A stretch of DNA of 64,000 nt from a virus: IMG/VR virus record IMGVR_UViG_3300042892_004373, positions 1 through 64,000 of that record; one strand, given 5' to 3'. This document shows positions 4,012 through 26,721 of this stretch, one piece after another (position 1 is the first letter of the stretch; the number at the start of each line of letters is the position of its first letter). The notes beneath the pieces are model-generated. The model was given only the letters and a program-made list of their open reading frames with translations. It made no database searches and was not told the DNA's origin. The position numbers and the translations under genes are program-made.

Positions 4012-5172
4012 ATGAGATGGATAAAATTATTTGAACGTTTTAATAGTTTAGAAAATATTGTATTGATTGGTGGTGGAATTTCATCACTATATACTGCTTA
4101 TTTAATTAAGAAAAAATTTCCTGGAGTAAAATATACAATAATTGAAAAGGATTCAAAATGTGGTGGTAGAGTAAATATGTCTAAGATAGATGATGTATAT
4201 ATTCCAACTGGTGCACAATTTACCAGAGTTGATAAAGATCTTATTTTAAAAAAACTATTAAAAGATCTTAATATCAAATTAGATACCTATACATTGGATA
4301 TGGATTATACATTTAAAAAGAATGATATTGATGAGATGATTAAAAAACTTAATAGAAATATTAATAAATTTGATAGAAGTAAAATTACATTTAAACAATT
4401 TGCAAGTGAAGTTTTGAATCAAGATTATAATAAGTTTATTGATATGATGGGTTATAGTGACTTTGAGAATGCTGATATTGAGGATACTATGTATAATTAT
4501 GGTTTAAATGATAATATACCTGGTTATAAAGTTGCAAATGTTCCTTGGAACATAGTTATAGAGAGATTAATTGAAGAAATAGGTAGTGATAATATAATTC
4601 TTAACACTGAGGTTAATTCAATTAAAAAAGAAGGTCAATCTTTCTTGATTAATTCAAAAATTAAATGTGATGGTATTATCATAGGTGTTACTATAAATCA
4701 ATTAAGAAAGTTATTAGATAATCCAATATATAAACAAATAGAATCTCAAAATTTCTTAAAAACATTTGCAAAGTCAAATGATCTAAATATAGATAAATAT
4801 ACTATAGTTGACTCACCTTTGAGAAAAATTGTACCAATAAAGGATAATATTTTTACAATTACATTTGCTGATAATAAAGACGCTAGAGATTTAAAAGATA
4901 AAGATAAAGATTACTTCGAAAATATACTATCTAAACAATTTAATGAAGATATAAAATTAAGTAGTCTTAAAAAGTTTTTTTGGGAAGAAGGAACACATTA
5001 CTTTAAACCACTTTTAAGTAAATGGAAGTCAAGATCCGAATTCATTAATGACGCACAACATCCTAAGGATAATATTTGGGTAATAGGTGAAGTAGTTGCG
5101 GAGAAACAAGGTTGGGTTGAAGGAGCATTATCATCCGTTGAAAAGATAAGTTTATTTAAAAAACTAAACTAA
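4012..5172 (+). CDS. FAD-dependent amine oxidase-family oxidoreductase with N-terminal MRWIKLFE tag
   Basis: GGGISSL dinucleotide-binding motif, GGRV, C-terminal GE...QGWVEGAL. Confidence 0.8.
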   Translation: MRWIKLFERFNSLENIVLIGGGISSLYTAYLIKKKFPGVKYTIIEKDSKCGGRVNMSKIDDVYIPTGAQFTRVDKDLILKKLLKDLNIKLDTYTLDMDYTFKKNDIDEMIKKLNRNINKFDRSKITFKQFASEVLNQDYNKFIDMMGYSDFENADIEDTMYNYGLNDNIPGYKVANVPWNIVIERLIEEIGSDNIILNTEVNSIKKEGQSFLINSKIKCDGIIIGVTINQLRKLLDNPIYKQIESQNFLKTFAKSNDLNIDKYTIVDSPLRKIVPIKDNIFTITFADNKDARDLKDKDKDYFENILSKQFNEDIKLSSLKKFFWEEGTHYFKPLLSKWKSRSEFINDAQHPKDNIWVIGEVVAEKQGWVEGALSSVEKISLFKKLN

Positions 5173-8677: not shown

Positions 8678-8959
8678 TTATTTAATATTTTCTAGTTTCT
8701 CGTCTCTATAGTAAGGTCTTAGGTCAACATTGAAGTTACCACTATAATCATAATCACCTGCACCATATTTATATTCTACACTAATTGTATTTTCATCAAT
8801 GATTACACACTTATCATAGTGATGCCAACCTTGGTCAAATTTTTTAGGATCTCTAGGAAATTTCTCATTATATCTTACTTTTGCAAAATCATCGAGTTTT
8901 TTTCGATCTTCTTTAACACTAATTAAATTTTTTACTGATTTTTGTAATTCTGATTTCAT
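8678..8959 (-). CDS. Hypothetical protein with C-terminal RDEKLENI tag
   Basis: ORF coupled to the upstream gene. Confidence 0.65.
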   Translation of the reverse strand: MKSELQKSVKNLISVKEDRKKLDDFAKVRYNEKFPRDPKKFDQGWHHYDKCVIIDENTISVEYKYGAGDYDYSGNFNVDLRPYYRDEKLENIK

Positions 8960-9195
8960 TATTCGTCTTTATATTTAGTTGTTAAATGATAATAATCACA
9001 TTGTTCACATCTATATGCTACTAAAGTTGTATCTTTTTTAGGATATGTTTTATTTAAGTATTCTGCATTTACTTGTGCCAGTGTAAGAGTTTCCCATCTT
9101 ACTTTTGGTGTTTTATTTGCGGATATACAGATTTCATTTTTTTCTTCCATATGTATTCTTGATTTCCTTGGGAAAACTAATTCATTTTTATTCAT
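8959..9195 (-). CDS. Small zinc-ribbon protein
   Basis: YRCEQCDYYHLT; TATCTTTG box at 9200-9207. Confidence 0.65.
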   Translation of the reverse strand: MNKNELVFPRKSRIHMEEKNEICISANKTPKVRWETLTLAQVNAEYLNKTYPKKDTTLVAYRCEQCDYYHLTTKYKDE

Positions 9196-17954: not shown

Positions 17955-18956
17955 TTAGTTTATTGCCAATCTTTTTGTTGATGTTTTACCATCTTCTGTA
18001 ATTTTTACAATATACATACCTGTTACTAAACTACTTACGTCTAATTGACTTTGTGTATTTTCTACTAAAACTTTTTTACCAACCATGTCATAAATCTCTA
18101 TATTTTTTGTAGAATCTAGATCAGTTGTAATATTTAAAATGTTTTTTGTTGGGTTTGGATAAACTTGTAATCCAGAGATTTGATTTTGATTAGTAGATAA
18201 AGATCCTGTTGGAGTAACTGATAAAAATGTATTTGATACACGTATTTCATCAATTTCAACATTACCAGATCCCGCTGTTGCAGTACCACCTTGTCTAATT
18301 ACAAAACCTGTAATCGTTGTGGGTGCCGCAGTAGTTCCTGTAGAATTTGTTACTGTTGCAGTTGGTTCGGTATTACCAGGTACTGGATTTACAAATAAAC
18401 TAGCAGTATTGGTTGATAATTCATACTTTACAACTAATAGGTGTGTACTGCCTACTAATAGATCACTTGTAAATGTTGGTGTTGCTGTACCACCACTATT
18501 ATTTAGTATTCCAACTTGAAAACCTGATGTGGCACCCTGTCTTGTATAAATTCTTCCTTGAAATGCGGTTGTTGTTGCACTTGCAACAGACGTTAATGAT
18601 AAACCGTAGCTTCCAGTTGTTGAAGTATTTGGATCTAATTGTGTTGCATCTAATACTTTAATTAGTACTGAGTAGTAGACAACTCCTGATAATGGTGTTG
18701 TTAGTGGAAAGTTCACATCTTCTGTATTACCTGCAATCATAGAGGTTCTATTACCTGTTGATGTTGCCAAACCAGGATAAGATAAACTGCTACCATTATC
18801 GCTAGATGAGGTAATTATTGATAATTGTCCGGGGGTTCCACTGTGTGTAGTCCAACCATTTGAGGTTAGTGTACCTGTTCCATTAAAAGGAATGTAGGTT
18901 TGACCGAAAGAAATAGTTGTCATAAGTAAGACAACTAAAGTTAAAAGTTTTTTCAT
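17955..18956 (-). CDS. Secreted protein with T9SS type-A sorting domain
   Basis: Signal peptide; C-terminal VYPNP, IYDMVGK, GMYIVKI, KRLAIN. Confidence 0.85.
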   Translation of the reverse strand: MKKLLTLVVLLMTTISFGQTYIPFNGTGTLTSNGWTTHSGTPGQLSIITSSSDNGSSLSYPGLATSTGNRTSMIAGNTEDVNFPLTTPLSGVVYYSVLIKVLDATQLDPNTSTTGSYGLSLTSVASATTTAFQGRIYTRQGATSGFQVGILNNSGGTATPTFTSDLLVGSTHLLVVKYELSTNTASLFVNPVPGNTEPTATVTNSTGTTAAPTTITGFVIRQGGTATAGSGNVEIDEIRVSNTFLSVTPTGSLSTNQNQISGLQVYPNPTKNILNITTDLDSTKNIEIYDMVGKKVLVENTQSQLDVSSLVTGMYIVKITEDGKTSTKRLAIN

Positions 18957-19027
18957 GTTTTTATAAGTTTTTATTTTTCTTTCTTTATACAATTTAGATA
19001 TTAAAAGTTTAAAAAATTTATAAAATA

Positions 19028-19085: not shown

Positions 19086-19925
19086 ATAAGGGGCTGAGAT
19101 TATGCCATCTTGTAAGAATCTTTTGAAGAATTATTGTTTCTCTTCGTATCCACAATCTTTTGGATTGTAATTCTCATTGAGGATTAGTTAGACTAATCAC
19201 TTCTTGAGGCTTCAACTACTCTCTTATTACTCAACTCTCTTCAAACTTGCGGTCTGATTAAGGGTTCGACCCCTTAGAGGTTTTTGGCAAGAATACGTCT
19301 CAACTTGCGATCTTGACGTGCACTGGACAACCCAGTACTATGTACTCAACTTTCGTTGAAGCCTGACAGACACTTTTGCTTTTTATGTTTAAATTTTACT
19401 TCAAATGTAAATTGCTTTTGTGTTCGTGGATGTGTCGAAGAAGTGGTCTGCCGTAAGCTTCGTTATCTTTTGAACAACGAAATACTAAACTCCTTCGTGA
19501 AGCCTCCCAGCCTCCATATTTTAAGACAACTTCAAACTAACGCCTTGGTAGACATTTAGTAGGGATAGTAGCAGCACCACCTGTTCTCTACCATTACCTT
19601 TCGGTTTTAAGTTACCTTTTATATTGGAAGTCGCAATCATATAGTTGGAGCCATATTTCTTGCAAAAATCCTATGAGTTATTCTTATTGGTGTTCCCACC
19701 TCAACCGGACAATCCACATTGCCACGATTACTCAACCACTTTTTCTACAGTGTTACCCTCGATACTGAAGGTTGAGTAATATCTCACTTGTGTACTCGAG
19801 CTCTTACGAGCCGCAGAACCATTTAACGTTGATTCCACTTTAGCCTACTTTCGTAGTTTATTTAACGACGATACACCGCCGATTATCATTTTACTAGCCA
19901 CCGAAGTGATTAGTTGGATAATACA
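19086..19925 (-). ncRNA. Large structured ncRNA, GOLLD-like (boundaries approximate)
   Basis: ~840-nt GC-elevated region with no credible ORF, many GNRA/UUCG hairpins, own TATCTTTG box (19967-19974), next to a tRNA cluster. Confidence 0.65.
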
Positions 19926-20232: not shown

Positions 20233-20263
20233 GATAAGTAGTTGCCTACCTAGGTTTTATTTG

Positions 20264-20352
20264 TAGTCTGTACGGGATTCGAACCCGCGTTACCTCCTTC
20301 GAAGGGAGAAGTCCTGACTCACCGAGGTGAGTATCCACTAGACGAACAGACC
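20264..20352 (-). tRNA. tRNA-Glu-bodied RNA copy 2 with UCG (Arg) anticodon and D-loop insert
   Basis: Stem UCUCC/GGAGG, loop CUUCGAA; insert ACUCAC-CUCG-GUGAGU. Confidence 0.75.
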
Positions 20353-22162: not shown

Positions 22163-23227
22163 TTATCCTGAAATATATCTAAATAATAGAAATAATCCAC
22201 AAGAAACTAGAATTGTTACTGGTAACGTAAGAATCCAAGCAGATAATATAGTTTTAATTGTTTTTGTTTTTAAGTTATTTACTCCTTTTGATGCCACCAT
22301 TGACCCTGCAATACCAGAGCTTAATATGTGTGTTGTTGATACTGGTAGCTTAAACGCAGTTGATAATCCGATTGTAATTGCGGCGACTAACTCAGAAGAC
22401 GCTCCTTGTGCATAAGTTAAATGTTGTTTACCAATTTTTTCTCCGATCGTAACAACAATTCTTTTCCATCCAATCATTGTTCCTAATCCTAATGAAGTGG
22501 CAATCATCCACATAACCCACATTGGTGGATTCTCAACATTTTCTAATGTAAATATAGTAGGTAAGAAAGCCATAAGAATAATCATTGCTAAACCAATTCC
22601 TTTTTGACCATCATTTCTTCCGTGAAAGAATGAAACTAATGTACAAGTAGAAATTAAGGTCGCTCTAATCCATAATGGTGGTGGATTATCTCCTTTAGGC
22701 TCTTCAAATACGTCTTTTCTTTTAATAACTTTGTTTAAGAACCACATTAGAAGGATAACCATAGTAAATCCTAATAAAGGTGAGAATGCTAAAGCTTTTC
22801 CTATATCAATAATTTTACCCCAATTAGTATAATCTACTCCTGTTATAATAGAATAACCAACAGAAACTCCGATAATTGATCCAATTAGTGTATGAGAGGA
22901 AGAAGCTGGAATTCCTTTATACCAAGTTGCTAAATTCCAAAGGATTGCAGTTATAAGAATTGACATAACCATTCCCATTGAGTGATAGATGTTAGTATCG
23001 GTAAGTAATTCTTTAGGAATAAGTGTTACAATACTTAATGCAACACCTACACCACCAGTGATAAGACCTAGGAAATTCATAATTCCTGACCAAACAACTG
23101 CTTGTTTAGGTTTTAAAGATTTTGTGTAGATTACTGTGGCAACCGCATTTGCGGTATCGTGAAATCCATTAACGAATTCAAATATACAAACTGCAAGTAA
23201 GGCTAGAATTAGAAAAGTTGTTAACAT
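22163..23227 (-). CDS. PiT-family inorganic phosphate transporter
   Basis: NGFHDTANAVAT, GIPASSSH, HGRNDGQK, PVSTTH. Confidence 0.93.
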   Translation of the reverse strand: MLTTFLILALLAVCIFEFVNGFHDTANAVATVIYTKSLKPKQAVVWSGIMNFLGLITGGVGVALSIVTLIPKELLTDTNIYHSMGMVMSILITAILWNLATWYKGIPASSSHTLIGSIIGVSVGYSIITGVDYTNWGKIIDIGKALAFSPLLGFTMVILLMWFLNKVIKRKDVFEEPKGDNPPPLWIRATLISTCTLVSFFHGRNDGQKGIGLAMIILMAFLPTIFTLENVENPPMWVMWMIATSLGLGTMIGWKRIVVTIGEKIGKQHLTYAQGASSELVAAITIGLSTAFKLPVSTTHILSSGIAGSMVASKGVNNLKTKTIKTILSAWILTLPVTILVSCGLFLLFRYISG

Positions 23228-23274
23228 AAATAGTTTTTTTAAGTATAGTTATTAGAATTAAAAAGTTTAAAAAA

Positions 23275-23465
23275 TAAGTGAGCTTAGCCGCGATTTTGTT
23301 TTATCCCATCATTTATCTTTGCATCAACCCGTTCTCATAGGGAAACCGACACCCTCGAATTGTTTGACTTGCTACTTCCTTAGTACAATCGACATTAGTC
23401 TCCTAAGTTAGGTTTTGTAGTCGCGAACTTCCTCTGTTTCCAGCGATAGGTTCTCTGCTTACTTA
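23275..23465 (-). ncRNA. rnpB: Minimal RNase P RNA (catalytic domain, ~40-nt residual S-domain)
   Basis: GAGGAAGUUCGCGA pairs with ACAAAAUCGCGGCU (P4 with bulged U); AGAUAAAUGAU; P1, P2 and GAAA-capped P3 present. Confidence 0.85.
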
Positions 23466-24371
23466 TTAAAATTGGTGTGTACCTTGATTTACGTTAAACA
23501 CGAAGATACCTTCGTCATACCACATATCTACTACACTTAATCTATCATCATAAACACAAAGTAAGTTATAATTTGGTTTAATATGATTTTCGTATATTTC
23601 TTTTTTAATTAAAGTATCTTTTCTATAATCATCTTTTGGTCTCATATACATTTCATCGAATTCAATACCGTGAAAGTCTAACCATTCCTCGGTAACTTCT
23701 CGACAAACTTCATCACGACCAGTTACGATAATTACTTTTCTACCTTTATCTTTATGAAATTGTAATTGTTCTGATACAATTTCGTTCAAATCATCTTTAT
23801 AAACTTGCATCCAATCGAATGGACCTCTACGACCCATAAGTGCAAGTGTACCATCGATGTCAAATATAACTGCACCTTGTTTAGTGGAGTTAAAATCTGG
23901 GATCAAATGAGGTCTTGTCATTTTTTTGACTGGTTGAAAGTCAAAAGAATCCATTAAAATTTTATATTCTTTATACATTCTATTGATAACAACAGGACCT
24001 ACAGACTTGTCTCTTTGTCTGTCTCGTTCTATCGCCTTGTCTTTTGATATATCAAAAACTTGATAGTCTATATCGGCACTAAACTTAAACTTCTCGATAA
24101 TGTTTTGGATATATTTATCTTTTAGATTAGTATTATCAACGATAACATTCATTTTTTTAAGTAATGATTGCTCAATTGTTGCATCAACTAATTCATTTAT
24201 TATATTCTCAACTTTATTTTCTACAACTCCAGAGTTTTTTAACATTTCTCTAAAGTCGTCTCTACTTACTCTAGTCCAATTATCATTTGTTTTCACAAAA
24301 TCTTTGGCCCATGTAGATTTGCCGGAGGCAGGTACTCCGATAAGTATTTTTATTTTTGTATTTGTCTTCAT
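23466..24371 (-). CDS. Polynucleotide kinase/3'-phosphatase (T4 PseT-like)
   Basis: P-loop GVPASGKST, RDDFR, HAD motif FDIDGT, YDDR. Confidence 0.92.
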   Translation of the reverse strand: MKTNTKIKILIGVPASGKSTWAKDFVKTNDNWTRVSRDDFREMLKNSGVVENKVENIINELVDATIEQSLLKKMNVIVDNTNLKDKYIQNIIEKFKFSADIDYQVFDISKDKAIERDRQRDKSVGPVVINRMYKEYKILMDSFDFQPVKKMTRPHLIPDFNSTKQGAVIFDIDGTLALMGRRGPFDWMQVYKDDLNEIVSEQLQFHKDKGRKVIIVTGRDEVCREVTEEWLDFHGIEFDEMYMRPKDDYRKDTLIKKEIYENHIKPNYNLLCVYDDRLSVVDMWYDEGIFVFNVNQGTHQF

Positions 24372-24433
24372 GATTTTATAATTTATACAAATGTAATCAT
24401 TTAAAATTAAAAAAACCACTCAAAGTGGTTTTT

Positions 24434-24643
24434 TTATCCTCCGTATGCATCGATTATGTAACCATGTTTAACTCTAAAGTTAATTCTATTAGGATTAGCA
24501 TCCATTTCTAGCATTTTTGATTGACCATTTTCTTCTGTTATTCTTACTATAAATCCACCATCTTTAGCGTATTGTGTAGCTTCTTCGATGGTTTTACCCT
24601 CATATTCTCCTCTTGTAATTAAACCAAAATTTCTTAATGCCAT
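24434..24643 (-). CDS. Small protein, protease-inhibitor I78-like
   Basis: MD.NPNRIN pattern. Confidence 0.45.
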   Translation of the reverse strand: MALRNFGLITRGEYEGKTIEEATQYAKDGGFIVRITEENGQSKMLEMDANPNRINFRVKHGYIIDAYGG

Positions 24644-24688: not shown

Positions 24689-25333
24689 TTATCTTTTTAT
24701 TTCGGCTTTCTTCCAATTTCTAGTCCAGTGAACATCCGTGCTAACGTGGCCTTTTCTTACCCATTTCATTACATTATCTGCGAAGTCGTCATTGTGAAAC
24801 ATTCCTGCAGTTCTTACTACGATACCTTCTCTTTGTCCACCTAATTCAGATGGTTTACTAACTAAATCTTCTACAATTTGTTGTAATTCTTTCACGGAGT
24901 TTACTACACCTTTGAATAAAACAGGTACAGTTGGTATATCTAATAGGTAAGAATACTCTTCTACTTTTTCCCAAGGGATCCAAATATCATTATCTCTGAT
25001 ACCAAAGATATAAAAGTAAGATTCTAGATTAGAGTATTCGATAGAGTGAATACCTTCCATATTTTCTCCGAATAAGAAAACACCGTCTCCTAATTCATCT
25101 TCAACTGATAGTTTGTGTAATTGTCTAACTTCTCTTGACCAAGCAGATGTAGTAAAAGTTGCGTGACTTCTTGCATAAACTCCTTCATCTGTCATTCCAC
25201 AATTTTCACCGTCTAATTTCTCAGTAATAACAATTTCAGTACCTAATAATGATTCTACATTATCAGATATTCTATCATCATTTGTTGATCCTGGTGACCA
25301 TGGCAGGTGGTAGGTTCGATTATACTTACTCAT
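24689..25333 (-). CDS. RNA ligase family protein
   Basis: TEKLDGEN adenylation motif, FGEN, EGIVVR, KWVR. Confidence 0.88.
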   Translation of the reverse strand: MSKYNRTYHLPWSPGSTNDDRISDNVESLLGTEIVITEKLDGENCGMTDEGVYARSHATFTTSAWSREVRQLHKLSVEDELGDGVFLFGENMEGIHSIEYSNLESYFYIFGIRDNDIWIPWEKVEEYSYLLDIPTVPVLFKGVVNSVKELQQIVEDLVSKPSELGGQREGIVVRTAGMFHNDDFADNVMKWVRKGHVSTDVHWTRNWKKAEIKR

Positions 25334-25878: not shown

Positions 25879-26721
25879 TTATTTACTAAACTCGTCGAAC
25901 TTTAAAAGTTTTGACTCAATTACTACTTCTTTAGTAGAACCGGCACCACCTCTTTTCTCGATGGCTTTCCATTTCTTATCTAAGAAAGCTAACTTAGCTT
26001 TATCGATTTTACAGTTTCTATCTGAAATGTTTCCTTCGTTAAAAAGAGAGATCATTTCATCAATACTTAATGTAGGGTGTTTTTTATCAAATAAAGGGTC
26101 TGGATGTGACCAACCGAATTTGAATAACCAGTTTAACATAGCGGCTTTGCTGAAGTCTTGGTAGTCTGCAGTAGTACCGTTACCTTTTCTCTTAGATAAT
26201 TTAGCATTACCCTCGAAAAGTAAACCAGCGTGTGTGATTGTTGGGAATGTCTTATCTCCTTCTACTTCACAAATCTTATCCCAGATAATTCTTTGTTTAG
26301 CCTCATTTGCAATGTGGTCAACACCTCTGATGATGTTAGTTACATCGTAATCGTAGTCGTCTAAGATAGAACAGAAGTTGTAAGTAGGGAATCCGTTATT
26401 TCTAAGGATAACCATTGAGTACTCTCCCATATCTAACTCGTAACCATTCTCAGTTTTAGTACCGATTTTCTCAGCCACTTCTCTGTAACGGTCTAATCTT
26501 TCAGATTGTCTGAATGTGATGTCGTGATCTAAACCAAAATCCGCCATTTGTTCATAGATATAGTCAATCCATTCTGGTTTATTTCTTTCTTGATCAGTAT
26601 CATCAATTCTTAAAATGAATGTACCGTTATTCGCTCTTGCTTGAAGCCAAACAAGTAATGCCGTTCTTAAAGTTCCTAAGTGGAAAAAGCCAGTTGGAGA
26701 GGGTGCTACTCTTGTTACCAT
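25879..26721 (-). CDS. Minimal glutamyl-tRNA synthetase / GluQ-RS-like catalytic core
   Basis: RVAPSPTG.FHLGT, RIDDTD, PTYNF, IRGVDH, KLSKR; no anticodon-binding domains. Confidence 0.85.
   Translation of the reverse strand: MVTRVAPSPTGFFHLGTLRTALLVWLQARANNGTFILRIDDTDQERNKPEWIDYIYEQMADFGLDHDITFRQSERLDRYREVAEKIGTKTENGYELDMGEYSMVILRNNGFPTYNFCSILDDYDYDVTNIIRGVDHIANEAKQRIIWDKICEVEGDKTFPTITHAGLLFEGNAKLSKRKGNGTTADYQDFSKAAMLNWLFKFGWSHPDPLFDKKHPTLSIDEMISLFNEGNISDRNCKIDKAKLAFLDKKWKAIEKRGGAGSTKEVVIESKLLKFDEFSK

What the first reader, a model, noticed from the sequence alone, without database searches (positions are those of the whole stretch)
23275..23465. 191-nt RNase P RNA reduced to its catalytic domain
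Seen on the minus strand: P1 UAAGU.AGC/GCU.ACUUA, P2 CCUAUC/GAUGGG, P3 CUG-GAAA-CAG, P4 AG(U)UCGCGA/UCGCGGCU with compensatory changes relative to the usual GUCCGGG/CCCGGC, P5 CUAC/GUAG, then CAAG and AGAUAAAUGAU. Only about 41 nt lie inside P5. Established: bacterial P RNAs are roughly 350-400 nt and the S-domain reads the tRNA D/T elbow. Inference: an elbow-blind ribozyme would suit tRNAs with D-loop inserts or no D-arm. It starts immediately after the PNK stop codon, in the RNA ligase-PNK transcription unit.
Basis: partly seen in the sequence, partly recalled or inferred. Interest (0 to 1): 0.85.

Follow-up and report, generated by a model that had tools for sequence, protein, structure and literature searches.

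The report
Phage-encoded miniature RNase P RNA
A fragment of a large freshwater phage carries a 191-base, cut-down gene for RNase P RNA (the ribozyme that trims new tRNAs) that keeps the whole catalytic half and only a 41-base stub of the half that reads the tRNA's shape; it belongs to a large phage-only RNA family that I could not find described in print.

Summary
Window 23275-23465 (-) is a real RNase P RNA homolog. Rfam's archaeal RNase P model spans it end to end below threshold (25.3 bits, E 3e-5). A covariance model built only from other phages' copies hits it alone in the 64 kb (190 bits, E about 6e-56). The fold is bacterial type A: P1-P5, P6 pseudoknot, P15-P17 with the invariant L15 GGU, and CR-I/IV/V. 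A 41-nt stub replaces the specificity domain, and P18 is absent. On a structure-blind alignment of 35 members, 87.6% of cells pair against 66.9% shuffled, and 44 of 54 pairs change on both sides. Larger relatives grade into bona fide type A RNase P RNA (L035, 178 bits). The signature occurs in 22 viral contigs but once in 185,579 cellular genomes. Two of five near-complete carrier phages also encode RnpA. Catalysis, protein partner and substrates are inferred. A sister phage (PNK 95% identical) has the gene split by 3.8 kb. This scan has already confirmed the same family many times on other DNA. Six literature searches found no description.

The parts
23275..23465 (-). Whole RNA gene, 191 nt (P1 could extend by two A-U pairs to 23273-23467, overlapping the PNK stop codon)
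   Evidence: Sequence; Rfam RNaseP_arch 23276-23460; family model R1 23272-23463, 190.2 bits
23457..23465 (-). P1 5' strand UAAGUAAGC
   Evidence: flank duplex -9.5 kcal/mol, z -2.83, 2 of 200 shuffles as good
23275..23283 (-). P1 3' strand GCUCACUUA
23445..23450 (-). P2 5' strand CCUAUC
   Evidence: P2 98.1% paired, 6 of 6 pairs change on both sides
23305..23310 (-). P2 3' strand GAUGGG
23434..23443 (-). P3 hairpin CUG-GAAA-CAG
   Evidence: variable length in relatives (9-30 nt)
23421..23434 (-). CR-I and P4 5' strand GAGGAAGUUCGCGA; bulged U at 23426 in the canonical register (23427 pairs as U.G)
   Evidence: Invariant columns; P4 99.6% paired, 3 pairs with changes on both sides; register fixed by the L132 variant
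23285..23299 (-). CR-V and P4 3' strand AACAAAAUCGCGGCUA
23417..23420 (-). P5 5' strand CUAC
   Evidence: P5 100% paired, 3 of 4 pairs change on both sides
23372..23375 (-). P5 3' strand GUAG, followed by J5/15 CAAG (23371-23368)
23376..23416 (-). 41-nt remnant in place of the specificity domain: J5/7 with the P6 5' strand (23415-23411), P7-like helix (23407-23403 with 23383-23379), hairpin GAC-UAAU-GUC (23400-23391), conserved single strand ending in invariant AC (23384-23383)
   Evidence: stub 41-101 nt in 35 members, median 46; the window is at the minimum
23343..23347 (-). P6 pseudoknot 3' strand GGUUU in loop L17, pairing with AAACC 23415-23411
   Evidence: 5 pairs, about 81% paired, all with changes on both sides
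23323..23368 (-). P15-P16-P17 arm (P15 23368-23365/23326-23323; P16 23359-23357/23334-23332; P17 23354-23352/23342-23340) with L15 GGU at 23329-23327
   Evidence: P15 95%, P16 100%, P17 88.6% paired, all pairs covary; GGU invariant
23310..23318 (-). CR-IV AGAUAAAUG (J15/2; no P18 between P15 and this block)
   Evidence: P18-type insert in 11 of 35 members, 2 nt here

Best explanation
The RNA at 23275-23465 (-) is a phage-encoded descendant of bacterial type A RNase P RNA. It keeps the complete catalytic domain: P1-P5, the P6 pseudoknot, P15-P17 with the L15 GGU, and CR-I, CR-IV and CR-V with the bulged U of P4. The specificity domain is reduced to a 41-nt stub and P18 is lost. Most likely it is made as the tail of the PNK transcript, or from a start inside it, and folds on its own. 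It then binds an RnpA-type protein, the host's here while some relatives bring their own, and cleaves the 5' leaders off the phage's pre-tRNAs, and possibly its tRNA-like RNAs, during infection. It would recognise the acceptor stem, leader and 3' end rather than the D/T elbow. Shown here: homology, architecture, selection on the fold, restriction to phage DNA, tRNA-gene context in relatives, and co-encoded RnpA in some relatives. Inferred: catalysis, the protein partner in this phage, the substrates, and the benefit to the phage.
For: (1) Rfam RNaseP_arch spans its whole model over 23276-23460 with the S-domain skipped, E 3.1e-5. (2) Model R1 was built from 27 other phage copies without the window or its three nearest relatives. 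It gives 190.2 bits, E about 6e-56, at 23272-23463, and no other significant hit in 64 kb. (3) Larger family members with the same P4 variant match bacterial type A RNase P: L035 178.2 bits (gathering 100) and L004 62.5 bits, E 1e-16. (4) Covariation on a MAFFT alignment of 35 members: 87.6% paired against 66.9% shuffled (0 of 500 shuffles reach it) and 28-48% with slid partners; score 0.518 against 0.06-0.085; 44 of 54 pairs change on both sides, including pairs in P4 and P6. (5) The invariant bases lie in CR-I, J5/15, L15 GGU, CR-IV and CR-V, that is the catalytic core and CCA-binding loop. (6) In relatives the gene lies inside same-strand tRNA arrays, directly flanked by tRNAs in L003, L005, L007, L012 and L013. 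35 of 44 representative loci hold tRNA genes, 417 in all. (7) 2 of 5 near-complete carrier genomes encode an intact RnpA (PF00825, 50 and 47.7 bits) in a shared phage context beside ClpP. None of the five has a second type A RNA. (8) The signature occurs in 22 viral contigs and in 1 contig of 185,579 species genomes. (9) Published work: the bacterial C-domain alone cleaves pre-tRNA with or without RnpA (review PMC4919922, passages read). In the engineered E. coli C-domain a P6-type contact matters and P18 does not (PMC5839562, abstract read). That matches what this family keeps and loses.
Against: No activity data exist. No Rfam RNase P family reaches its gathering score on the window (25.3 bits against 84). 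RF00010 and RF02357 searches of the record found no candidates. The MFE fold is no better than shuffles (z +1.22). No RnpA is encoded in the 73-kb record, which CheckV rates 26% complete, and 3 of 5 near-complete relatives lack one. In a sister phage (PNK 95% identical) the gene is split by a 3.8-kb Rrf2-NrdD-NrdG cassette. In L016/L017 an HNH endonuclease gene sits in the P16/P17 arm. So the RNA may be dispensable, or may have to work in pieces. The review states that loss of the S-domain lowers rate and affinity. Transcription was not shown: RNA-library contigs cover the RNA and its flanks alike. tRNA genes of this window do not encode CCA (0 of 4), so the L15 contact would depend on CCA being added first.
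Confidence: 0.7

Rival explanations
1. Non-catalytic decoy or regulator. The RNA keeps the RnpA-binding, catalytic-domain scaffold in order to titrate the host RNase P protein, or to compete for pre-tRNAs. This would shut down or redirect host tRNA maturation without cleaving anything itself.
For: No RnpA in this record. S-domain loss weakens substrate binding (PMC4919922, passages). One P4 pair next to the bulged U is G-C where the type A consensus has A-U.
Against: The invariant positions include the bulged U, J5/15 and the L15 GGU, which serve catalysis and substrate 3'-end binding rather than only protein binding. Some carrier phages add their own RnpA instead of depleting it. The gene sits inside phage tRNA arrays in relatives.
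Confidence: 0.12
2. Specialised processor. An elbow-independent RNase P evolved for aberrant substrates: the tRNA-Glu look-alikes with D-loop hairpins beside GOLLD, or D-arm-less tRNAs, which a normal S-domain would reject.
For: The window does hold GOLLD (19091-19497, 324 bits) and an odd tRNA call at 20263-20352. The sister phage record and LR745206 also carry GOLLD.
Against: GOLLD is absent from 7 of 10 carrier records, including 5 of the 7 that are complete or at least 95% complete. Most family members lie in arrays of canonical tRNAs that ARAGORN calls. Nothing ties stub length to tRNA oddity.
Confidence: 0.1
3. Decaying relic. A captured host rnpB that has lost its S-domain and is drifting towards loss, with no present function.
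For: Interrupted copies exist (L016/L017, L022). Rfam scores are sub-threshold.
Against: Compensatory changes keep every helix across at least 35 diverged copies, and core bases are invariant. 62 of 132 loci held carry a copy scoring up to 202 bits. The two halves of the split L022 gene are otherwise intact.
Confidence: 0.05
4. Not RNase P at all. A PNK 3'-UTR element or other structured RNA that resembles RNase P by chance.
For: Only a sub-threshold Rfam hit on this sequence alone. The MFE fold is not exceptional.
Against: There is a graded series to a 178-bit type A RNase P RNA with the same P4 variant. The pseudoknots P4 and P6 are in the canonical places and covary. Adjacency to PNK is not conserved.
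Confidence: 0.02

Closest known systems
Bacterial type A RNase P RNA (rnpB / M1 RNA; Rfam RF00010)
   Same: P1-P5, P6 pseudoknot, P15-P16-P17 with GGU in L15, CR-I, CR-IV and CR-V, bulged U in P4. Larger phage relatives with the same P4 variant score 178 and 62.5 bits on RF00010. An RnpA partner is encoded by some carrier phages.
   Different: 191 nt against the typical 340-420 nt (PMC4919922). No P8-P14 and no CR-II or CR-III. No P18. Four P4 pairs are swapped relative to the RF00010 consensus printed. It is encoded by a phage, not a cell. It fails the RF00010 threshold.
Archaeal minimal type T (also called type P) RNase P RNA of Thermoproteaceae / Pyrobaculum (Rfam RF02357)
   Same: A natural RNase P RNA of about 200 nt that keeps the catalytic domain and lacks nearly the whole specificity domain (PMC4919922 and PMC7191817, passages read).
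   Different: Type T is archaeal, works with archaeal proteins and is the cell's only RNase P. PMC7191817 describes it as found only in Thermoproteaceae. The window RNA has bacterial type A features (P6, L15 GGU, P16/P17), and RF02357 found no candidate in the record. This is convergent reduction, not membership.
Engineered C-domain constructs of bacterial RNase P RNA (for example Eco CP RPR)
   Same: The same domain content. These constructs cleave substrates with or without protein at reduced efficiency. A P6-type interaction matters and P18 does not (PMC5839562, abstract; PMC4919922, passages).
   Different: They are laboratory deletions. The phage RNA is a natural, selected form with a conserved stub (P7-like helix, hairpin, invariant AC) that the constructs lack.
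Other phage mini RNase P RNAs found by this scan (for example e1-5857473, e1-5337829, e1-5748132)
   Same: The same family or sister families: 149-288-nt catalytic-domain forms in large phages, often in tRNA arrays, some with RnpA.
   Different: This copy is a 191-nt, P18-less form placed directly behind a PNK gene rather than in a tRNA array. Those notes are unchecked AI notes, except where I repeated the test here.

Membership tests
Bacterial type A RNase P RNA (RF00010) | Score at or above the curated gathering score of the family model | tested here: not met
   No RNase P family at gathering threshold in the window. RF00010 search of the record found no candidates. The best clan hit is RNaseP_arch at 25.3 bits against a gathering score of 84. 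Relatives: L035 178.2 bits (met), L004 62.5 bits.
Bacterial type A RNase P RNA (RF00010) | P4 formed by CR-I and CR-V strands with a single bulged U | tested here: met
   23429-23421 with 23293-23286. 99.6% paired in 35 sequences, with compensatory swaps at three pairs. A further fully compensated variant in L132.
Bacterial type A RNase P RNA (RF00010) | CR-IV block and J5/15 conserved single strands of the catalytic core | tested here: met
   GCAAG and AGAUAAAUG are present and aligned to the model. They are invariant or nearly invariant in the family.
Bacterial type A RNase P RNA (RF00010) | P6 pseudoknot between J5/7 and L17 | tested here: met
   AAACC 23415-23411 with GGUUU 23347-23343. 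Five pairs, about 81% paired, all with changes on both sides.
Bacterial type A RNase P RNA (RF00010) | P15/L15 internal loop with GGU that binds the tRNA 3' CCA | tested here: met
   GGU at 23329-23327 is invariant in 35 sequences. P15 is 95% paired. The binding itself cannot be tested here.
Bacterial type A RNase P RNA (RF00010) | Specificity domain (P7-P14) with CR-II and CR-III | tested here: not met
   Only 41 nt lie inside P5. The Rfam alignment skips the S-domain positions.
Bacterial type A RNase P RNA (RF00010) | P18 hairpin with GNRA loop | tested here: not met
   2 nt lie between the GC that follows the P15 3' strand and CR-IV in the window. A P18-type insert is present in 11 of 35 relatives.
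Bacterial type A RNase P RNA (RF00010) | Site-specific 5' cleavage of pre-tRNA; works with RnpA | not testable with these tools
   No RnpA in the 73-kb record. RnpA is present in 2 of 5 near-complete carrier genomes.
Archaeal type T RNase P RNA (RF02357) | Match to the family model | tested here: not met
   The RF02357 search of the record found no candidate at E up to 10. The first look found none, so nothing was scored.
Archaeal type T RNase P RNA (RF02357) | Catalytic domain kept, specificity domain nearly absent, about 200 nt | tested here: met
   191 nt with a 41-nt stub. This is a likeness of form only.
   190.2 bits, model 1-205 of 205, at 23272-23463 (-). The seed left out the window, L009, L010 and L106.

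The most novel reading that the evidence does not exclude
Large phages carry their own RNase P: a natural, bacterial-lineage, catalytic-domain-only ribozyme, with a phage RnpA in some lineages. It matures phage tRNAs independently of the tRNA elbow and of the host enzyme. It is modular enough that the sister phage's gene, cut in two at J5/7 by a 3.8-kb cassette with a promoter-like box before the 3' half, still yields a working two-piece ribozyme.
Probability: 0.25. Interest if true: 0.9.

Novelty: new variant of a known kind. Interest (0 to 1): 0.8.

Why it matters
RNase P RNA is treated as a strictly cellular, near-universal gene. The only natural form without a specificity domain in the papers I read is the archaeal type T, which one of them says is found only in Thermoproteaceae (PMC7191817). 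A widespread phage family of type A catalytic-domain-only RNAs would give three things. It would be the first virus-encoded RNase P ribozymes. It would be an independent natural experiment on what the S-domain and P18 are for, and it agrees with the engineered C-domain work: P6 kept, P18 dispensable. It would also be a 191-nt bacterial-type ribozyme small enough for structural and mechanistic work. It further suggests that large phages take over tRNA 5' maturation along with tRNA supply, repair (RNA ligase and PNK next door) and charging. Standard annotation misses the gene, because no Rfam family reaches threshold.

Tried and rejected
Thermodynamic stability: the MFE of the 191 nt is no better than shuffles (z +1.22, 180 of 200 shuffles fold at least as well). 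The MFE fold does not recover the pseudoknotted structure, so it is not useful either way.

Automatic P1 finding over 110-nt flanks and unrestricted duplex folding picked distal AT-rich pairings. I replaced them with P2-anchored, 20-26-nt flanks. MAFFT cannot align P1 (50.4% paired). The duplex control gives z below -2 in 30 of 44 members, and 14 of 44 do not reach that.

Encoded-CCA test of the L15 contact: 132 of 417 tRNA genes in 44 representative loci encode CCA. The split is by phage, and the window has 0 of 4. No support.

Expression: the look-up of sequencing runs listed 12 runs, 9 holding part of the stretch, none holding half of its words. I laid 4 of them (X1, X2, X8, X3), all as contigs. 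One X1 contig (23311-23456, no mismatch) and one X8 contig of a relative (23283-23701) cover the RNA, but the flanks are covered at like depth. There is no verdict on transcription, ends or level.

Promoter scan: 22 sigma-70-like sites against 25.7 expected, none placed to serve the RNA.

GOLLD co-occurrence: 3 of 10 records, so no link.

Cultured carrier: blastn of the window region and of two other subfamily members against 50,697 phage records gave only three uncultured huge-phage records and one unrelated PNK hit, then nothing. I did not find it.

RF00010 and RF02357 on the record: no candidates. Rfam on L001 and L002 as whole loci missed the RNA. 7 of 10 loci gave no RNase P hit at E up to 0.1.

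The search for related loci with the two phage RnpA sequences found only 4 loci, one of them the query's own, too few to measure co-occurrence.

Rows left out. Of 44 unique sequences, A1 used 35. Dropped: L110 (near-copy of L029); L025 and L097 (doubtful end trimming); L005, L032, L035, L049, L076 and L091 (the six longest, to keep the alignment compact). A3 used 27 of those 35, dropping the window, L009, L010 and L106 (too close) and L003, L020, L033 and L055 (long inserts). P1 pairs were left out of model R1.

I did not use structure prediction, complex prediction, the protein representative search or the metagenome scan. Supplementary files of papers were not opened and may hold RNA lists that I could not see.

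Full report
WHAT IS THERE. P1 is UAAGUAAGC/GCUCACUUA, P2 is CCUAUC/GAUGGG, and P3 is CUG-GAAA-CAG. The block GAGGAAGUUCGCGA pairs with UCGCGGCU as P4 with one bulged U. P5 is CUAC/GUAG and encloses exactly 41 nt. CAAG and AGAUAAAUG follow. The upstream ORF (23466-24419) is a polynucleotide kinase-phosphatase (AAA_33 plus HAD_PNKP). Its stop codon is 23468-23466, so the RNA begins at the next base. The window is part of a 73-kb IMG/VR virus record rated 26% complete, so it is a fragment of a much larger phage.

IS IT RNase P RNA? At Rfam gathering thresholds nothing in the RNase P clan is reported for the window. With the permissive setting on 23000-23800, the archaeal RNase P model aligns over its whole length (1-288) to 23276-23460 at 25.3 bits, E 3.1e-5. 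It matches CR-I, J5/15, CR-IV and CR-V and skips the specificity-domain positions.

Related DNA settles the matter. The only nucleotide-level matches of a 1.6-kb query in 50,697 phage records fall on the RNA itself, in three uncultured phage records of 635-735 kb. A 34-nt degenerate pattern for the CR-IV to P4-3' block finds 22 viral contigs. Of these, 51 loci (44 distinct sequences, 191-354 nt) carry both blocks at 120-263 nt spacing.

Among the larger members, L035 matches bacterial type A RNase P at 178.2 bits (gathering 100, E 6e-56) with a recognisable, reduced S-domain and the same P4 variant. L004 matches at 62.5 bits, E 1e-16. Seven of the ten loci in that search gave no RNase P hit at E up to 0.1. 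So the family grades from near-canonical type A RNAs down to the window's 191-nt form.

As an independent test I built a covariance model from 27 members, leaving out the window, its three nearest relatives and four long forms. It hits the window once, at 23272-23463 (-), with 190.2 bits, E about 6e-56, over the full model. It finds copies in 62 of the 132 loci held. The other 70 are unrelated occurrences of the 15-mer.

STRUCTURE AND SELECTION. I mapped a full secondary structure from the window onto a structure-blind MAFFT alignment of 35 members, writing P4 and P6 as pseudoknots. 87.6% of 1747 cells form standard pairs. That compares with 66.9% in shuffles (0 of 500 reach the observed value) and 28-48% when partners are slid by 1-3 columns. 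The covariation score is 0.518 against 0.06-0.085. 44 of 54 pairs show changes on both sides.

Per helix, the share paired is:
- P2: 98.1%
- P4: 99.6%, with compensatory swaps at three pairs
- P5: 100%
- P6: about 81%
- P7-like helix: 81.7%
- Stub hairpin: 85.4%
- P15: 95%
- P16: 100%
- P17: 88.6%

P1 is only 50.4% paired because MAFFT cannot align the ragged ends. A separate duplex test of the proximal flanks beats shuffles at z below -2 in 30 of 44 members. The window has z -2.83, with 2 of 200 shuffles as good.

The invariant columns are GAG.AA.UUCG..AC (CR-I/P4), GCAA (J5/15), GGU (L15), GC, AG...AU (CR-IV) and A.A.CA..A...CGG.UA (CR-V/P4). These are the catalytic core and the CCA-binding loop.

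Against the type A consensus printed, P4 has the same length and the same bulged-U position, with four pairs swapped. The variant in L132 (AACCUCGGAA with UUCCGGGU) is again fully compensated and fixes the register. P6 is a type A hallmark (J5/7 with L17). It is AAACC/GGUUU here and changes to other complementary pairs in relatives.

WHAT IS MISSING. Inside P5 the 35 aligned members have 41-101 nt (median 46), and the window is at the minimum. A P18-type insert, often two hairpins with the second carrying a GNRA loop, is present in 11 of 35 and absent here. The stub is not random filler. It holds a covarying P7-like helix, a hairpin and a conserved single strand ending in an invariant AC. CR-II and CR-III, the elements that contact the D and T loops (PMC4919922, passages read), are gone.

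CONTEXT. The 34-nt signature occurs once in the one-genome-per-species collection of 185,579 prokaryotes, on a 10.6-kb MAG contig, against 22 viral contigs. The family therefore looks phage-specific.

In relatives the gene lies inside same-strand tRNA arrays:
- L003: between tRNA-Thr and tRNA-Cys
- L007: one base after tRNA-Leu
- L012: six bases after tRNA-Thr
- L013: six bases before tRNA-Tyr
- L005: between tRNA-Lys and tRNA-Gly

12 of the first 24 loci, and 35 of 44 representative loci, hold tRNA genes, 417 in all.

In this window the gene instead follows PNK, within a tRNA-metabolism block: RNA ligase 24689-25333, a GluRS/GlnRS-type catalytic domain 25879-26721, and tRNAs and GOLLD 3-4 kb away.

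Of five complete or at least 97%-complete carrier genomes, two (LR745206 and a 476-kb record) encode an intact RnpA. These match PF00825 at 50 and 47.7 bits and carry a KKFKRAVDRNRIKRLM basic motif. Both lie beside a ClpP gene in the same arrangement, which is not the bacterial rpmH-rnpA-yidC context as I recall it. None of the five has a second type A RNase P RNA. No RnpA lies in the window's 73-kb record.

MECHANISM. Published work says the bacterial C-domain alone cleaves pre-tRNA, with or without RnpA, at reduced rate and affinity (PMC4919922, passages). In the engineered E. coli C-domain a P6-type contact is needed while P18 contributes nothing once the S-domain is gone (PMC5839562, abstract). 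The phage family keeps P6 under selection and has lost P18 in 24 of 35 members, which is what an active C-domain-only enzyme would be expected to do.

I therefore think the RNA is an active RNase P ribozyme for the phage's own tRNA precursors. It would use host RnpA here, and phage RnpA in some relatives. It would read the acceptor stem, leader and 3' end instead of the elbow. This step is inferred. Nothing here shows cleavage, and expression could not be shown.

POINTS AGAINST AND OPEN.
- The sister phage (L022) has a PNK 95% identical to the window's. Its gene is cut after AAAACCU in J5/7 by about 3.8 kb carrying Rrf2, NrdD and an NrdG-type radical SAM gene.
- In L016/L017 an HNH_3/NUMOD4 endonuclease gene sits in the P16/P17 arm.
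- Either the RNA is dispensable in those phages or it works in pieces. The 3' half in L022 is preceded by TATATTTG, which fits the Bacteroidota -7 box as I recall it. That is only a hint.
- The CCA test gave no support.
- GOLLD accompanies the mini RNA in only 3 of 10 records, and most relatives sit among ordinary tRNA genes.

KNOWN OR NEW. I ran six full-text searches:
- RNase P RNA with phage, specificity domain and huge phages
- phrases for phage or viral RNase P RNA
- rnpB or RNase P with jumbo or huge phage
- RNase P with jumbo phage
- RNase P with huge phages
- phrases for lacking the S-domain

None found a paper describing a phage-encoded RNase P RNA. P finder (PMC7191817) says the minimal T-type is found only in Thermoproteaceae and does not contain the word phage. 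Bcheck (PMC2996960) has no mention of phage, virus or plasmid. The CPR paper (PMC8172020) reports diverged bacterial forms only. Lai et al. 2010 is not held, and I know it only through the review. The library lacks most subscription journals and I could not open supplements, so 'not in print' is provisional.

Within this scan the family is not new. Earlier follow-ups confirmed the same or sister RNAs of 149-288 nt on other phage DNA, the split gene, and a phage with both RNA and RnpA. One unchecked first-reader note says phage RNase P RNAs are 'not unprecedented' without a source.

VERDICT. The identity is supported. This is a new structural variant of a known ribozyme, in an unexpected kind of genome. 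It is of high interest to RNA and phage biologists and can be tested directly at the bench.

Noticed in passing
window 19091-19497 (-): GOLLD RNA, 324 bits against a gathering score of 150, about 3.8 kb downstream of the mini RNase P RNA on the same strand. GOLLD also occurs in LR745206 and in the records behind L022 and L118, but in only 3 of 10 carrier records.
   Followed up: partly
window 20263-20352 (-): ARAGORN calls a 90-nt tRNA with a four-base anticodon.
   Followed up: no
L022 about 5070-5122 and 8927-9064 (+): In a sister phage (PNK 95% identical to the window's) the mini RNase P RNA gene is split in J5/7 by about 3.8 kb. The insert holds Rrf2, NrdD (347 bits), an NrdG-type radical SAM gene and three small ORFs. 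The 3' half follows a TATATTTG box.
   Followed up: partly
L017 8617-9314 (-), the same in L016: The mini RNase P RNA gene is interrupted in the P16/P17 arm by about 490 nt. The insert has a perfect 10-bp hairpin that repeats the L17 sequence, followed by a 136-aa HNH_3 plus NUMOD4 homing-endonuclease ORF. R1 hits both halves.
   Followed up: partly
L111 12869-12949 and 13524-13790; L125 4030-4296 and 4871-4951: Besides the full R1 match (84.3 bits), a second short match (31.7 bits) lies about 600 nt away on the same strand in two loci. It may be a partial duplicate or another interrupted copy.
   Followed up: no
L133 1465-1812 (+) in LR745206; L134 1498-1797 (-): Phage-encoded RnpA homologs (PF00825, 47.7 and 50 bits), 62% identical to each other. 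Each lies beside a ClpP protease gene (185 bits) in two huge-phage genomes that also carry the mini RNA.
   Followed up: yes
window 22163-23227 (-): A PHO4-family phosphate transporter gene (266 bits) lies directly downstream of the RNA. This is an auxiliary metabolic gene in a phage.
   Followed up: no
window 25879-26721 (-) and 17955-18992 (-): A 280-aa ORF has only the class I Glu/Gln-tRNA synthetase catalytic domain (153.6 bits). A 345-aa ORF ends in a Por_Secre_tail sorting domain, which hints at a Bacteroidota host.
   Followed up: no
window 24408-24436 (-): A terminator-like hairpin (13 pairs followed by a T run) lies between the small ORF after the RNA ligase gene and the PNK start. 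It questions a single ligase-PNK-RNA transcript.
   Followed up: no
L132 1417-1632 (+): The only hit in the prokaryote genome collection is on a 10.6-kb contig of a MAG labelled Deltaproteobacteria. It is a full family member (134.8 bits) with a different, fully compensated P4. It is probably binned phage DNA.
   Followed up: partly
window 23331-23407: One metatranscriptome contig (run X1, depth 2.8, 28 letters on the shorter side) skips 75 nt inside the RNA. It is a single weak record and remains unexplained.
   Followed up: no
44 representative family loci: Whether phage tRNA genes encode the 3' CCA is all-or-none by phage. Examples: 35 of 36, 21 of 21 and 18 of 18, against 0 of 30, 0 of 30 and 0 of 28.
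   Followed up: partly
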